Positions 2,887-10,215 are shown, counted from the stretch's first letter. The stretch: DNA of 13,486 nucleotides from an uncultured Candidatus Marinamargulisbacteria bacterium (GCA_964349635.1 CAYGHZ010000043.1:1-13486); one strand, 5' to 3'. Numbers and translations are program-made. Notes: a model not told the origin generated them from the sequence alone.

Positions 2887-5800
2887 TTGAGCAATTTATT
2901 TGGACACCTATTGAGCAAGAGAACTCTACCATTGGGAAGCGTGATCGAATATGAGTTCACCGACAACCTGGTAAAAGGAGAAGTGCGGTTTGGATATATT
3001 TTAGGACTATATTCTTGGTACCGGAATGATGAACACTATTTACCGGACTATTCGTACCCGCTAGCCATAAAAAAGAGCGTCAAGAGCGACACTACCACGC
3101 TGCCTCAACAATCATATGCGGTAAATTTTAAATATCTGGATCTGAACTTCTATTCCAACGTCGACTTTTCAAAAACGATGTTTTTCTTTGATCAGGTCAA
3201 AGTCGATAATCCGGAAGATATGGAGGATGAAACATTTTATTTTTCACGCGGTCGGTTAACCAGCCATGCCAAAGGAATTATCTATCAAATACAAGCCTGG
3301 GATTATGATCAAAATCGTCTAACCAAAACCGCTACTTACCGCAACGGCATAATCCAAACCGAAACCGAATATCAAAGCTACGATTCCTATAACAATCCGT
3401 TGAGGATCCTGACTCGCAAGGGGACAACAGACTTTATACGGCAGGAAAATACCTATTATATCGACACCGCCTTAAATAGTTTGCATGCGGTTAAAACAAG
3501 CAAAGCTACTGATATTGCCAAAGGAACCTCCCGAAGCCAAACCATAAGCTACAATTCCAAAGGCAAGCCCGAGGCGATTTATGAGGGAGAATCGGCGTCT
3601 CCTGAAACGCAAATTAAAGCGCTAACCTATGATTCTTTTGGTCAGGTTGCTAATGAAACCAGCTTTGGCCCCAATGGTAATTCCGTTCAGACTTATACCT
3701 ATAGCCAAACCGCGAGCCGGTATATCGCGACGCAATCTTTGAACGGCAAAGCCGTAGAACAACAATTCGACCTTAACACCGGGCAACTCGTCCAATCTAA
3801 AGACCTGAACGGGCAAGTCACCACACAAGCCTATGATGACTATGGCCGCCCGACCGTCACCAGCTATCCCGACAACCAACAAAAAACGATTCAATACGCA
3901 ATCGACCTAAAAACCACTACGGTCACCGCCGGAGGTCGCACCGTCAGTTCGACGCTAGACACCTTTGGACGCACAATTTTGGTCGACTACCCAGAAGGCG
4001 AAGAAGATACTAAAACGGACTACACGGCGTTGGGCGCCGTTTCCAAAATATATAAAAAGCAAAGCGGAAATTGGGTTCAAAAAAAGAGTTATGAGTATGA
4101 CTCCAAAATGAGAATGATCCAATCCATCTCCGCAGATTTTGGAACCACTGTATATGCCTATGATGATCTGGCCAACACGGTCACCGTAACCGACCCCAAA
4201 GGCCGATCGGTCAAAAAAACGGCAAACGAGCTTGGGCAAACCACCGATGCGACGGGCGTAGACAACACCACGGTTCATTCGGACTACGACGCCTTCGGCA
4301 ACCTGCTAAAACTCACCGATCCCCGAAATTTAGTTCGCCAGACTGACTATGACGCTTACGGACGAGTAACGGCCGCCTATCATCCGTCTGCCTCCGGCGC
4401 GACTCCGGTGAAACAAAACATCCCGATGTACACAAATGGAGCCATCACGCAAAGCCAAACCTTTGGCGCGGACGGCCAGGCATTTCATACGTACGCATTC
4501 ACGTACGATACGGAAGGTCGCCTCACCCAAACGTCGGTAGGCGGAGTCGCCGTTGAAACATTAACGTATGACGAATCGGGACACGGCGGCAGCGCGGGTC
4601 GATTGACCACCGCCGAAAACAAAGCCGATGGGGTAAAGACGCGCTACGATTACGATAGTTTCGGTCGCCCCATAAAAGAAACGACGACCCTGGCGACGCT
4701 GAGCAACAAAACCTACACGATCCAAACGCAATACCATCCGGTCAACGGAAATGTCTCGGCCACACTATTTCCCGACGGAAAAGCGATTTCCTATGGGTAC
4801 GACGCAACCCAACGGGTCAATGCCATCAGCTACGATTCCAAATCTATCGCCGGTTACAGCTACAATCCCAATGGCACAGTGAAGCAGATCACCTACGGCA
4901 ATGGATTTACGATTCAGTACAGCTATACTAAAGAAGTGCTACTGACCGAAATTCTCTACAAAGACAAAACCGGCGCGCAGCAATTTAAGCAGACCTACAG
5001 CTACGATGAGCTAGGCAATCTGCAAAGCACGTGGCATTCGGATTATGGCAATTACTCCCCCGGAGGAATCACGCGAAAATATGCCTACGATGTGAAAGAC
5101 GAGCTAACCAGCGTAGCGATCAACGATGCGCCAACCTACACCCACAGCTACGACGCCAACGGCAACCCAATCCGCTTCGAAACACCCAATAACAAAGGCC
5201 TGTCCGGCAACAACATAACAGTCGATTTCAACGCCGACAAAATCACCGAAAAGCGACAAATCGACGGCTCAAAAACACAATTCGAATATGACGCAGAAGG
5301 CAACATGACCCGAAAACAACGCTTTGCCGCCAATGGCAACCCGGAAAAAGACATTCGCTATAGCTACAACTATCAAGGCCAGTTGCAAGAATCCAAAGAC
5401 AGCACAATTACAACGGGGACATATCGCTACAACCACAAACGCCAGCGCGTCTATAGCGATATGCGAATGGGAACGTCTACGGGCGACGGGATTAAGTGGT
5501 ATTACTGGGACGCAGGTGGCCGAAATATCGGTGAGGGGCATCAGCGATACGGAGACTATACGGTTCGGTATATTTACTCCGGCAATGAAAAGATCGCGAT
5601 GGCGAGGCCTAAAGATTTGGATAACATGGCGGCCGGTGAAGAGATTTTGTATTTCATCAATAATGCGCAGGGCACGCCGGTGATGGTTGTGAATGAAGCT
5701 GGCACTGTTGAGAGCCGAATTAATATGGATGAATGGGGAAATTTGGGGGATAACACGGACAAATCGGAGGTCAACTTAACCGGAAAAAAGCTCGATCCCT

Positions 5801-6675
5801 CGACAAACCTCTACTATTTTAATCAGCGGTATTATGACCCTGAAATTGGGCGGTTTTTGACGCCGGATCCTGCGGGACAGGCGCTCAATCCGTATTTGTA
5901 TTGCGGGAATAGTCCGTTGGCTTATATCGATCCGGACGGCAGAACCTTTTTTGAAGCGATGACATTGATGGGGGCCGTGTATGGTGCAATGTTTGGCGGC
6001 GTAGGAAATATGGTGGCGGGCGGACGATTTCAAGATGGTGCCTTCGGCGGAGCAATCACCGGAATTAAGATCGGCGGCATTGCCGGTCTAATTACCGATG
6101 GATTCACAGGCGGGTTTGCCAGTTATAATGGGAATCCCATTTTTCAGATGGCGGCTTGGGCGAATATAGGGGCGTGGTCGGGGCAGTTGGGAACTATGAC
6201 CCGGCTTAACATTCCAAGTGACGCTTCTGCTACTAATACTTCTAAACCGGCAACTAAACCTAATTTGTCACCAGCTTTAAATTTGAATGGTCCCTATAGT
6301 GCTCGGACTTATGCGAATCGGTATGATCATTTGGAGGGGCAATATGCCAGTAATTGGGCTACGGATGCGATCGAGGAAGCCAGGGTGGGTATTAAACATA
6401 CCTGGGCGGCATATAAAAGCGACCCCGTTATTAGACTTTTCGATAATGCGCATGGTTCTATTGGAGATGTATTGAGTAATGCGTCCCTGCAATTTGGCGG
6501 CTATCCCATAATTGGACCGGTGATTGAATCCACTGATGCCGCTTGGAGTGCCTCTTACTTGCCTGCTCAAGCTGCTATTTTGATTGGAATTGAATCTTGG
6601 AATACACTAACACAACCTGCTTATCAAGCACCCTATTTTTATGGTGGTGGAGCAGGACAATCTGGGAGATGGTAA
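2887..6675 (+). CDS. rhs: Rhs family protein carrying the YD-repeat shell, the RHS repeat-associated core and a C-terminal polymorphic toxin domain (CT1). The true start is uncertain. TTG 2887 sits immediately after the in-frame TAG, and no ATG occurs for about 100 codons.
   Basis: There are many YD repeats (YDSFGQV, YDDYGRPT, YDAFGNLLKLTDPRN, YDAYGRVT, YDTEGRLTQ, YDYDSFGRPIKE, YDELGNLQS, YDANGNPIRFE, YDAEGNMTRKQ). The RHS core reads YIYSGNEKIAMA...YYFNQRYYDPEIGRFLTPDPAGQALNPYLYCGNSPLAYIDPDGR, with DPDG at nt 5929..5940. A 245-aa variable tip follows at 5941..6675 with lower GC. The stop is TAA. Confidence 0.85.
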   Translation: MSNLFGHLLSKRTLPLGSVIEYEFTDNLVKGEVRFGYILGLYSWYRNDEHYLPDYSYPLAIKKSVKSDTTTLPQQSYAVNFKYLDLNFYSNVDFSKTMFFFDQVKVDNPEDMEDETFYFSRGRLTSHAKGIIYQIQAWDYDQNRLTKTATYRNGIIQTETEYQSYDSYNNPLRILTRKGTTDFIRQENTYYIDTALNSLHAVKTSKATDIAKGTSRSQTISYNSKGKPEAIYEGESASPETQIKALTYDSFGQVANETSFGPNGNSVQTYTYSQTASRYIATQSLNGKAVEQQFDLNTGQLVQSKDLNGQVTTQAYDDYGRPTVTSYPDNQQKTIQYAIDLKTTTVTAGGRTVSSTLDTFGRTILVDYPEGEEDTKTDYTALGAVSKIYKKQSGNWVQKKSYEYDSKMRMIQSISADFGTTVYAYDDLANTVTVTDPKGRSVKKTANELGQTTDATGVDNTTVHSDYDAFGNLLKLTDPRNLVRQTDYDAYGRVTAAYHPSASGATPVKQNIPMYTNGAITQSQTFGADGQAFHTYAFTYDTEGRLTQTSVGGVAVETLTYDESGHGGSAGRLTTAENKADGVKTRYDYDSFGRPIKETTTLATLSNKTYTIQTQYHPVNGNVSATLFPDGKAISYGYDATQRVNAISYDSKSIAGYSYNPNGTVKQITYGNGFTIQYSYTKEVLLTEILYKDKTGAQQFKQTYSYDELGNLQSTWHSDYGNYSPGGITRKYAYDVKDELTSVAINDAPTYTHSYDANGNPIRFETPNNKGLSGNNITVDFNADKITEKRQIDGSKTQFEYDAEGNMTRKQRFAANGNPEKDIRYSYNYQGQLQESKDSTITTGTYRYNHKRQRVYSDMRMGTSTGDGIKWYYWDAGGRNIGEGHQRYGDYTVRYIYSGNEKIAMARPKDLDNMAAGEEILYFINNAQGTPVMVVNEAGTVESRINMDEWGNLGDNTDKSEVNLTGKKLDPSTNLYYFNQRYYDPEIGRFLTPDPAGQALNPYLYCGNSPLAYIDPDGRTFFEAMTLMGAVYGAMFGGVGNMVAGGRFQDGAFGGAITGIKIGGIAGLITDGFTGGFASYNGNPIFQMAAWANIGAWSGQLGTMTRLNIPSDASATNTSKPATKPNLSPALNLNGPYSARTYANRYDHLEGQYASNWATDAIEEARVGIKHTWAAYKSDPVIRLFDNAHGSIGDVLSNASLQFGGYPIIGPVIESTDAAWSASYLPAQAAILIGIESWNTLTQPAYQAPYFYGGGAGQSGRW
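5179..5940. repeat. Direct repeat, copy A. This is the rhs core-coding region inside the full-length gene.
   Basis: It matches 7281..8042 at a fixed offset of 2102 nt. Three pairs of overlapping six-frame ORF translations are letter-for-letter identical between the copies. This implies about 100% identity over roughly 5179..5870, after which identity decays to the DPDG codon. Confidence 0.9.
5941..6675 (+). other. Rhs C-terminal toxin domain CT1. It has a glycine-zipper-rich segment (about 5944..6200) and then an unrecognised ~150-aa distal domain.
   Basis: The domain starts right after the DPDG core boundary. Its sequence (GAVYGAMFGGVGNMVAGG...GIKIGGIAGLITDGFTGGF...) has GxxxG-like periodicity. 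It diverges completely from the orphan copy downstream of the core. GC drops relative to the rhs body. Confidence 0.6.
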
Positions 6676-6678
6676 ATT

Positions 6679-10084: not shown

Positions 10085-10111
10085 CCAGAATGCATCTGGA
10101 TTATTTTTTTT
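10085..10111 (+). terminator. Weak candidate intrinsic terminator after the 8843..10066 gene.
   Basis: A 5-bp stem CCAGA/TCTGG with loop ATGCA is followed by ATTATTTTTTTT, 19 nt after the TAA stop. Confidence 0.3.
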
Positions 10112-10137
10112 CAGCAGCCGGATATGCAATCCATAAA

Positions 10138-10215
10138 GCGACAAATCGACAGCTCAAACACAATTCGAATATGACCCCGAAGGCAAAATGACCCGAAAAC
10201 AACGCTTTACATGGC
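10138..10215 (+). pseudogene. Degenerate third copy of the rhs core junction, a vestige of a further orphan cassette.
   Basis: It aligns to rhs 5251..5335 (AAGCGACAAATCGACgGCTCAAAaaCACAATTCGAATATGAC...ATGACCCGAAAACAACGCTTT) at roughly 85-90% identity, with a 2-nt deletion and a 1-nt deletion that shift the frame. Homology ends before any core or toxin sequence. Confidence 0.6.

What the first reader, a model, noticed from the sequence alone, without database searches (positions are those of the whole stretch)
5179..10215. Rhs toxin-switching array with a full-length rhs, one intact orphan CT cassette and a vestigial third junction
The 762 bp encoding the end of the YD shell and the RHS core recur 2102 nt downstream. 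The downstream copy heads a second, unrelated toxin tip and its own downstream gene. A third 80-bp frameshifted fragment of the same junction sits at 10138..10215 with nothing behind it.

This is the displaced-tip architecture known for rhs and CDI loci. Homologous recombination between the arms would delete the 5941..8042 region (CT1 and immunity-1) and fuse CT2 onto the main Rhs. The third relic indicates the array was once longer.
Basis: partly seen in the sequence, partly recalled or inferred. Interest (0 to 1): 0.55.

Follow-up and report, generated by a model that had tools for sequence, protein, structure and literature searches.

The report
Rhs toxin locus with spare tip
This is an ordinary bacterial Rhs toxin locus, probably from an uncultured Margulisiibacteriota bacterium, that carries a spare toxin tip and a decayed fragment of another downstream, and whose main gene is broken by a stop codon.

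Summary
The repeat is real. Positions 5178-5939 recur at 7280-8041, offset 2102 nt, same strand and frame. Identity is 750/762, and the first 693 nt are identical. It encodes the last YD repeats and the RHS-associated core, and ends exactly at the DPDG motif.

After that motif the two copies continue into unrelated tips, each followed by its own gene: a membrane RDD protein (6679-7218) and a soluble 407-aa ORFan (8843-10066). A third piece, 10135-10208, matches 5250-5325 (E 7e-27) with a 2-nt deletion.

Independent short-read contigs carry both new junctions, so this is not an assembly duplication.

Two corrections:
- The 'full-length rhs' is cut by an in-frame TAG at 2884-2886. Five relatives read through this region as one ORF.
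- The relic comes from the 5' part of the arm, about 600 nt upstream of the core/toxin junction. It lies beyond a terminator-like hairpin.

Four related Margulisiibacteriota loci also have main-plus-orphan arrays, and one ends in a similar relic.

Verdict: a new member of the known displaced-tip (orphan) Rhs architecture. Switching by recombination is a sound inference but was not observed. Both toxin tips have unknown function. Interest is low to moderate.

The parts
29..1798 (+). Tail-fibre-like gene just upstream of rhs. Its stop overlaps the rhs start. It is context, a conserved neighbour of rhs in this clade.
   Evidence: PHROG tail fibre families at E 7e-18 and 1e-17. Homologues lie next to rhs in L006, L007, L008, L034, L035 and L037. 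Internal tandem repeats at 1020-1433.
1795..2886 (+). N-terminal fragment of the main rhs: hydrophobic signal-like N-terminus, DUF6531 and the first YD repeats. It ends at an in-frame TAG (2884-2886).
   Evidence: Pfam DUF6531 at 3.4e-06 and an RHS_repeat hit. Hydrophobic residues 1-30. TAG is in the same frame as the next ORF. Relatives read through as one ORF. The TAG is also present in the independent contig L003.
2887..6675 (+). Continuation of the main rhs: YD-repeat shell, RHS-associated core (about 5728-5940) and toxin tip 1.
   Evidence: RHS_repeat at 1.9e-33. YD_repeat_2x at 1.4e-24 and Rhs_assc_core at 1.5e-20 on residues 948-1018.
5178..5939 (+). Homology arm 1: the last YD repeats plus the core, up to the DPDG motif at 5929-5940.
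   Evidence: Identical to 7280-7972 over 693 nt, then 12 mismatches.
5941..6675 (+). Toxin tip 1 (244 aa). The first ~100 aa are glycine-rich and the last ~140 aa have no relatives.
   Evidence: No Pfam, PHROG, PADLOC or PDB match. The exhaustive HMMER search found only itself plus 4 hits confined to residues 2-105. 21% Gly in the first 100 aa.
6679..7218 (+). Candidate immunity gene 1: a 179-aa integral membrane protein of the RDD family.
   Evidence: Pfam RDD at 9.3e-06. Hydrophobic stretches at the N-terminus (within residues 1-54) and the C-terminus (153-179). G+C 0.31 against about 0.48 in rhs. Starts 4 nt after the rhs stop.
7280..8041 (+). Homology arm 2, the head of the orphan fragment. 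The frame is open from about 7212, but the first possible start codon is ATG 7407.
   Evidence: The left junction is present in L003 and L004 and the right junction in L001.
8042..8813 (+). Toxin tip 2 (256 aa). A glycine-rich domain of about 150-190 aa is shared with relatives. The last ~70-90 aa are unique.
   Evidence: Alignment A1. Tblastn hits of this domain in L012, L014, L034 and L037. No family or PDB match. 24% Gly in the first 190 aa.
8843..10066 (+). Gene linked to the orphan tip, a candidate immunity gene 2. It encodes a 407-aa soluble ORFan.
   Evidence: No family match. Only one homologue among 5.8 billion clusters: P0048, 53% identity to the C-terminal half, stand-alone in L029. 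No hydrophobic segment. G+C 0.37. AlphaFold model unusable, pLDDT 39.
10085..10112 (+). Terminator-like hairpin followed by a T run, between the 407-aa gene and the relic.
   Evidence: Consensus scan only: CCAGAATGCATCTGG followed by ATTATTTTTT. Sequence shown.
10135..10208 (+). Vestigial rhs fragment, homologous to 5250-5325 in the 5' part of the arm. It has a 2-nt deletion and nothing Rhs-like behind it.
   Evidence: Blastn E 7.5e-27, 4 mismatches, 1 gap. No further similarity in 10209-10334.

Best explanation
The region is an Rhs (YD-repeat) polymorphic toxin locus of the displaced-tip type, in a contig whose nearest relatives are Candidatus Margulisiibacteriota / Marinamargulisbacteria.

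Layout: a Sec-signal/DUF6531 Rhs protein ends in the RHS core and DPDG motif, and then carries toxin tip 1. A membrane protein that is probably its immunity factor follows. Downstream lies an 'orphan' cassette. It consists of the last 762 nt of the rhs shell and core with no start or export signal, a different tip 2, and its own linked gene. After a terminator-like hairpin sits a 74-nt decayed piece of a further arm.

Mechanism (inferred, not observed): RecA-type homologous recombination between the two direct arms would delete 2102 nt (tip 1 plus immunity 1) and fuse tip 2 in frame to the main gene. After a prior duplication, both could be kept. This was shown experimentally for Salmonella LT2 with a shorter, less similar arm (522 bp, 95%).

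In this particular sequence the main gene carries a premature TAG. The locus is therefore at present most likely a silenced or decaying copy. What is most likely to remain useful is its immunity genes and its stock of tips.
For: - Repeat geometry, frame and the end of similarity at DPDG.
- Rhs identity: PF05593, TIGR01643, TIGR03696.
- Unrelated tips and unrelated downstream genes.
- No start codon in the orphan frame before 7407.
- Low G+C of the two downstream genes, 0.31 and 0.37 against 0.48.
- Both novel junctions occur in independent contigs. The Logan contig L004 overlaps the repeat by exactly 30 nt (k-1) at each end, which is the signature of a true repeat in the assembly graph.
- Relatives have the same layout: L034 (412-nt arm at 97%, a second orphan, a terminal 137-nt relic), L035 (665-nt arm at 83%), L037 (two orphans), and L012 (398-nt arm at 98% inside the glycine-rich domain).
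- Tips vary among proteins sharing this core. Some carry Peptidase_M23 or PF15607.
- Experimental precedent for the recombination: PMC3967940.
- Premature TAG against single ORFs in five relatives.
Against: - No recombinant (main rhs fused to tip 2) and no strain of the same species was found, so switching is untested.
- Toxicity of the tips and protection by the downstream genes are untested. Neither tip resembles any known toxin.
- A 407-aa protein is large for an immunity factor.
- The interior of arm 2 (7359-7818) is not independently assembled. Read coverage could not be examined.
- The TAG means that the recombinant would also lack its export half.
Confidence: 0.82

Rival explanations
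1. The locus is a fossil. The main rhs is a pseudogene (TAG), the orphan and relic are leftovers of past displacement events, and no switching happens now. Only the immunity genes may still be under selection, as protection against neighbours' toxins. This overlaps with the best explanation. The difference is whether the array is still used.
For: An in-frame TAG falls in a region that five relatives read through, and it is present in the independent contig L003. The relic is frameshifted. The exact TTG-start translation of 2887-6675 is not in the protein collection, whereas the orphan ORF and the 407-aa gene of the same contig are held as NCBI proteins.
Against: The arms are 693 nt identical, which points to a very recent event or ongoing gene conversion. 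All other reading frames are intact. A single nonsense codon can revert or be polymorphic in the population. TAG is followed at once by a TTG, so re-initiation cannot be excluded.
Confidence: 0.4
2. Assembly artefact or strain mixture. The second arm may have been created by the assembler, or the contig may join pieces from co-existing strains, for example one strain with tip 1 and one with tip 2 on the main gene.
For: The window is one short contig (13486 nt) of an uncultured organism. Short-read assemblies of a sample holding this sequence break inside the repeat. The interior of arm 2 has no independent support. L001 differs at 7877 and 7880. Two assemblies also break at 10204-10215 and overlap there by only 12 nt.
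Against: The junction from immunity 1 to the left end of the arm (7279|7280) occurs in two contigs made by different assemblers (L003, L004). It can only exist if a truncated copy follows immunity 1. L001 and L005 both agree with the window across 10204-10215. Relatives on long contigs (576 kb, 46 kb) have the same layout.
Confidence: 0.06
3. The orphan is expressed on its own from the internal ATG at 7407. This ATG is preceded by a GAAGG Shine-Dalgarno-like motif. The product would be a 468-aa intracellular protein with a role other than export, for example an addiction module together with the 407-aa gene.
For: The ORF 7407-8813 is intact, and GAAGG lies 5 nt upstream of the ATG. The ORF is held as an NCBI-sourced protein, so a gene was called there.
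Against: The same ATG and motif lie inside the main gene and arise from the YD repeat consensus (G-N-L/M-T). There is no promoter-like site between 7219 and 7406. Orphans in relatives begin at different positions, so no fixed start is conserved.
Confidence: 0.05

Closest known systems
Salmonella enterica Typhimurium LT2 rhs locus (main STM0291, orphan STM0292; Koskiniemi et al. 2014, PMC3967940)
   Same: A main rhs with immunity is followed by a 5'-truncated rhs fragment that lacks initiation and export signals and carries a different tip and immunity gene. A direct homology arm allows an in-frame fusion. The arm is 522 bp at 95% in LT2 and 762 bp at 98.4% here.
   Different: LT2 Rhs is delivered by a type VI secretion system (my own knowledge). 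Here the N-terminus is a signal peptide plus DUF6531, and no VgrG or PAAR lies in the window. The main gene here has a premature TAG. Recombination was shown in LT2 and is only inferred here. The phylum and the tips are different.
Escherichia coli Rhs elements with displaced tips and partial core fragments (Jackson et al. 2009, BMC Genomics, 'C-terminal displacement'; Hill et al. 1994). Recalled from my own knowledge, not read here.
   Same: There are successive tips downstream of the main core, each headed by a piece of core sequence, and vestigial core fragments are included.
   Different: This is a different clade. Here the relic is a piece of shell-coding sequence about 600 nt upstream of the core end and carries no tip.
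Bacillus subtilis WapA / Sec-dependent YD-repeat toxins (Koskiniemi et al. 2013, PNAS; my own knowledge, and mentioned in PMC3967940)
   Same: An Rhs/YD protein with an N-terminal signal peptide rather than a type VI adaptor, a variable C-terminal toxin and a downstream immunity gene.
   Different: WapA is cell-wall anchored in a monoderm bacterium. No wall-binding domain was detected here. Here there is a conserved upstream tail-fibre-like partner gene.
CDI (cdiBAI) orphan cdiA-CT/cdiI arrays (Poole et al. 2011, PLoS Genet; my own knowledge)
   Same: The logic is the same: orphan toxin and immunity cassettes downstream of the main gene, each headed by a stretch homologous to the region before the toxin.
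   Different: No CdiA- or CdiB-type domain was found in any protein of the window. The delivery protein here is an Rhs shell.

Membership tests
Rhs / YD-repeat polymorphic toxin | Multiple YD (RHS) repeats that form the shell | tested here: met
   PF05593 at E 1.9e-33 and TIGR01643 at 1.4e-24 on ORF 2887-6675.
Rhs / YD-repeat polymorphic toxin | RHS-associated core domain ending in the DPxG motif that marks the start of the toxin | tested here: met
   TIGR03696 at 1.5e-20 (main) and 3.2e-21 (orphan). DPDG lies at 5929-5940 and 8031-8042, and similarity between the copies ends there.
Rhs / YD-repeat polymorphic toxin | The C-terminal region after the motif varies between proteins that share the core | tested here: met
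   Tip 1 against tip 2 gives E 0.79. Relatives sharing the core have different ends, some with Peptidase_M23 or PF15607.
Rhs / YD-repeat polymorphic toxin | The tip is toxic and the downstream gene gives specific immunity | not testable with these tools
   The genes are in the expected places (6679-7218, 8843-10066), but neither the tips nor the 407-aa protein matches any known family.
Rhs / YD-repeat polymorphic toxin | One uninterrupted reading frame from the N-terminal delivery domain to the toxin | tested here: not met
   In-frame TAG at 2884-2886. Relatives have a single ORF of 1528-1697 aa.
Type VI secretion-dependent Rhs effector | PAAR or VgrG-binding N-terminal domain, or a neighbouring vgrG or chaperone gene | tested here: not met
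   No such domain in any ORF of the window. The N-terminus is a hydrophobic signal-like segment plus DUF6531. Only 13.5 kb was seen, so a distant type VI cluster cannot be excluded.
Orphan (displaced) rhs-CT/immunity module | Lies downstream of the main rhs and immunity pair, on the same strand, and begins with a fragment homologous to the conserved 3' part of rhs | tested here: met
   7280-8041 = 5178-5939, starting 62 nt after the stop of the gene at 6679-7218.
Orphan (displaced) rhs-CT/immunity module | Much shorter than a full rhs and lacks translation-initiation and export signals | tested here: met
   The frame is open from about 7212, with no ATG, GTG or TTG before 7407. There is no signal peptide or N-terminal domain, and only 254 of about 1380 pre-toxin codons are present.
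Orphan (displaced) rhs-CT/immunity module | Carries a tip and a linked downstream gene that differ from those of the main gene | tested here: met
Orphan (displaced) rhs-CT/immunity module | Recombination with the main gene produces an expressed chimera | not testable with these tools
   In-frame fusion is geometrically possible. No recombinant was found in the protein and contig collections. No reads were available.
CDI (CdiB/CdiA/CdiI) system | CdiA filamentous haemagglutinin repeats with a pre-toxin motif, and a CdiB transporter | tested here: not met
   No such Pfam or NCBIfam hits for any ORF of the window.

The most novel reading that the evidence does not exclude
In this clade, rhs sits in a conserved module: an Ig-like/FlgD_ig surface protein, a roughly 305-aa TraF_2-like protein, a tail-fibre-like protein, and a Sec-signal Rhs. 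This could be a Rhs delivery route not described so far that works without type VI secretion.

The arrays in two species (this window and L034) both end in a short piece of the arm. This terminal piece could be more than debris. It could be a right-hand homology anchor that lets whole cassettes be swapped in by double crossover. It could also be the scar left when excised cassette circles re-integrate.

The break of two assemblies exactly at the relic's 3' edge (10204-10215) could then reflect cells in the population with different array lengths.
Probability: 0.12. Interest if true: 0.6.

Novelty: new member of a known kind. Interest (0 to 1): 0.3.

Why it matters
It extends the displaced-tip Rhs architecture to Margulisiibacteriota, an uncultured sister lineage of Cyanobacteria. 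This architecture is best studied in enterobacteria. The tie to type VI secretion there is my own knowledge and was not tested here.

In this clade, main-plus-orphan arrays appear to be the rule (the window, L012, L034, L035 and L037).

The locus supplies two toxin tips and a 407-aa partner protein with no known relatives, plus a glycine-rich pre-toxin domain shared among relatives. These are candidates for new toxin and immunity families.

For genome annotation, it is a reminder that the 468-aa ORF at 7407-8813 is a gene fragment and that the main gene is interrupted.

None of this changes current understanding of how such loci work.

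Tried and rejected
1. Function of tip 1, tip 2 and the 407-aa protein. Pfam at E up to 10, NCBIfam, PHROGs, PADLOC and PDB sequence searches gave nothing. An exhaustive HMMER search with tip 1 found only itself plus four hits limited to the glycine-rich start. The AlphaFold model of the 407-aa protein had pLDDT 39, so no fold search was run.

2. Recombinant form or sister strains. Two protein searches found nothing closer than 58% identity apart from the window's own proteins. 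A scan of JGI metagenome contigs with the 21-mer shared by all three copies gave three chance matches with no flanking similarity.

3. L030 (P0002) looked like an orphan starting at the same methionine. It turned out to be a contiguous rhs with a frameshift, so it was not used as evidence.

4. Extension of the arm upstream of 7280, and any remnant behind the relic. Neither was significant against shuffles. A six-frame search found no further Rhs, tip or immunity fragments in the window.

5. Reassignment of TAG. It is the only TAG among the ten ORF stops; seven are TAA and two TGA. This is too few to judge. There is no tRNA gene in the window. No Rfam family matched.

6. A fixed site for arm ends. 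Arm and relic starts differ between loci (residues 1, 14, 112, 151 and 161 of the 254-aa segment; relics at 25-49 and 106-146). A site-specific mechanism is therefore unlikely.

Full report
**1. The observation**

A self-comparison of the window finds a direct repeat at an offset of 2102 nt. Base-by-base comparison places it at 5178-5939 = 7280-8041. Identity is perfect from 5178 to 5870 (693 nt). Twelve mismatches follow up to 5939, and there is no similarity beyond.

The left edge is sharp. The 64 nt before 7280 align to the sequence before 5178 no better than shuffled sequence does (score 20 against 20.3 +/- 3.0).

Both copies are in the same codon phase. They differ at 4 of 254 residues, all within the last ten (NSPLAYIDPDG against NNPNGFIDPDG). 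Both end at the DPDG motif, at 5929-5940 and 8031-8042.

A third piece at 10135-10208 aligns to 5250-5325 and 7352-7427, with 4 mismatches and a 2-nt deletion (blastn E 7.5e-27).

The one factual correction concerns this third piece. It comes from the 5' part of the arm (a YD repeat, KRQIDGSKTQFEYDAEGNMTRKQRF), about 600 nt upstream of the core/toxin junction.

**2. Is it an assembly artefact?**

The window is a whole contig. The orphan ORF and the 407-aa gene are held as NCBI-sourced proteins whose longest contig is 13486 nt, the exact length of the window.

The same sequence occurs in contigs of ENA assembly ERZ27247830 (k141-named contigs) and in Logan contigs of run ERR3094296.

- L003 equals window 1374-7358 at 100%. 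It carries the main gene, tip 1, the next gene and 79 nt of arm 2.
- L004 equals 5841-7309. It overlaps the repeat by exactly 30 nt at each end, which fits an assembly graph built from 31-mers at a true repeat.
- L001 equals 7819-10215. It carries the junction from arm 2 into tip 2.

The junction 7279|7280 can exist only if a truncated copy follows the gene at 6679-7218. The array is therefore not a duplication invented by one assembler.

Limits:
- These contigs probably come from one read set.
- The interior of arm 2 (7359-7818) has no independent support.
- L001 differs from the window at 7877 and 7880, both synonymous, so the arms may not be perfectly identical.
- Read depth could not be examined.

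**3. What the genes are**

- ORF 2887-6675 has RHS/YD repeats (PF05593 at 1.9e-33; TIGR01643 at 1.4e-24). It has the RHS-associated core at residues 948-1018 (TIGR03696 at 1.5e-20). The orphan ORF has the same core (3.2e-21).
- ORF 1795-2886 has a hydrophobic signal-like N-terminus, DUF6531 and the first YD repeats.
- The two ORFs are in the same frame, separated only by TAG 2884-2886.
- In five relatives the corresponding gene is one ORF: L006 1528 aa, L007 1697 aa, L034 1685 aa, L035 1613 aa and L037 1654 aa. The alignment places the TAG inside alignable coding sequence.
- The 'full-length rhs' is therefore interrupted. The TAG is also in L003.
- The exact TTG-start translation of 2887-6675 is not in the protein collection. 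This would fit annotation as a pseudogene, but that is a guess.

Tip 1 (5941-6675) and tip 2 (8042-8813) are unrelated (E 0.79).

- Each begins with a glycine-rich stretch, 21% and 24% Gly.
- In tip 2 this stretch is a domain of about 150 aa conserved in relatives, with variable ends (alignment A1).
- The ends of both tips have no relatives and no family or PDB match.

The gene after tip 1 (6679-7218) encodes an RDD-family membrane protein.

The gene after tip 2 (8843-10066) encodes a soluble 407-aa protein. Its only homologue in 5.8 billion clusters matches the C-terminal half and stands alone in its contig.

Both downstream genes have low G+C, 0.31 and 0.37 against about 0.48. This is usual for such cassettes (my own knowledge). 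Their immunity role is inferred from position only.

A terminator-like hairpin (10085-10099 plus a T run) lies between the 407-aa gene and the relic.

**4. Relatives**

The repeated segment finds its best matches (44-56% identity) in Candidatus Margulisiibacteriota / Marinamargulisbacteria single-cell and metagenome genomes. The tail-fibre-like gene upstream of rhs (PHROG tail fibre, 7e-18) is linked to rhs in those genomes too. The taxonomic placement therefore rests on synteny as well as on Rhs similarity.

Four relatives have orphan arrays of their own:
- L034, on a 576-kb contig. It has a 412-nt arm at 97%, a second orphan, and a terminal 137-nt relic right after the last gene of the array.
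- L035. It has a 665-nt arm at 83%.
- L037. It has two orphans.
- L012. It has a 398-nt arm at 98%, lying inside the glycine-rich domain rather than the core.

Arm starts differ from locus to locus, so no fixed site is involved.

**5. How it most likely works**

Shown here:
- the anatomy;
- the common frame of the arms;
- the absence of any start codon in the orphan frame before 7407;
- the recurrence of the layout in relatives.

Inferred:
- Homologous recombination between the arms deletes 2102 nt and places tip 2 on the main gene.
- If the locus first duplicates, both immunity genes are kept.
- This was demonstrated in Salmonella LT2 with a 522-bp arm at 95% identity (PMC3967940).
- The relic is most simply the remains of an older displaced cassette.

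Because of the TAG, the present sequence would not export either tip on a complete Rhs unless the codon reverts, is polymorphic, or is bypassed.

**6. Comparison with what is known, and novelty**

All defining features of an Rhs toxin and of an orphan module that can be tested on sequence are met. The exception is an uninterrupted main ORF.

No type VI secretion markers and no CDI markers were found in the 13.5-kb window.

This is a new member of a known kind. It comes from an unusual phylum and has uncharacterised tips.

**7. Left unexplained**

L001 ends at 10215 and the Logan contig L002 ends at 10210, while L005 starts at 10204. These assemblies therefore break within 12 nt of the relic's 3' edge. 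The relic shares no 31-mer with the arms.

This may be a gap in coverage in a shared read set. It may also be a sign that array length varies in the population. Only the reads can tell.

Noticed in passing
window 2884-2886: An in-frame TAG splits the main rhs into ORFs 1795-2886 and 2887-6675. A TTG follows it directly. Five relatives have a single ORF here. The TAG is also present in the independent contig L003.
   Followed up: yes
window 29-1798; L006 4789-6339; L007 1453-3003; L035 1984-3159; L037 2978-4396; L034 14118-15209 (minus strand): A tail-fibre-like protein (PHROG tail fibre, E 7e-18) is linked to rhs in every related locus. It has GNVGIGTTEP-type internal repeats. In the window its stop overlaps the rhs start. 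Further upstream in relatives lie an Ig-like/FlgD_ig protein and a roughly 305-aa TraF_2-like protein. This may be a conserved delivery or adhesion module.
   Followed up: partly
window 10204-10215: L001 ends at 10215, the Logan contig L002 ends at 10210 and L005 starts at 10204. The assemblies therefore break at the 3' edge of the relic, with only a 12-nt overlap. The relic shares no 31-mer with the arms. The cause could be a coverage gap or population heterogeneity.
   Followed up: partly
window 7877 and 7880: The independent contig L001 has T and G where the window has C and A. The window is identical to arm 1 at these positions. Both changes are synonymous. Arm 2 may carry private variants that the window's assembly smoothed out.
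   Followed up: partly
L034 13894-14030 (GCA_050250935.1, JBFWNS010000001.1): A related array also ends in a short relic. Its 137 nt are 97.8% identical to 8311-8447 of its own rhs, and it sits right after the last array gene. This parallels the window's relic.
   Followed up: partly
L012 646-1043 and 1520-1917 (CAZFCP010000028.1): This relative has an orphan cassette whose homology arm (398 nt, 98%) lies in the glycine-rich pre-toxin domain, not in the Rhs core. Recombination there would swap only the extreme tip.
   Followed up: partly
window 8043-8600 and alignment A1: A glycine-rich domain of about 150 aa (AHGxSGGIQS...GGxFGSGFAGG...) follows DPDG in many relatives and precedes variable ends. 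It matches no Pfam family. It may be a shared membrane-entry or pre-toxin domain.
   Followed up: partly
window 8843-10066: The 407-aa protein looks like two parts. Only residues 197-392 have a homologue (P0048, 238 aa, stand-alone in L029). The motifs AYFDLLGISKFY and HILSDTGFII loosely recall nucleotide-cyclase-type folds. That is my own impression, and no search supports it.
   Followed up: partly
window 1020-1433 and 410-1258: The tail-fibre-like gene contains tandem 207-nt units (71% identity) and 306-nt-spaced GNVGIGTT motifs. The independent contig L003 starts at 1374, inside these repeats.
   Followed up: no
L030 (ERZ17175174 k141_2062397), about 300-360: A related rhs has a frameshift at the position that corresponds to the left end of the window's arm (ETPNN region). 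It could be a sequencing error or another disrupted rhs.
   Followed up: no
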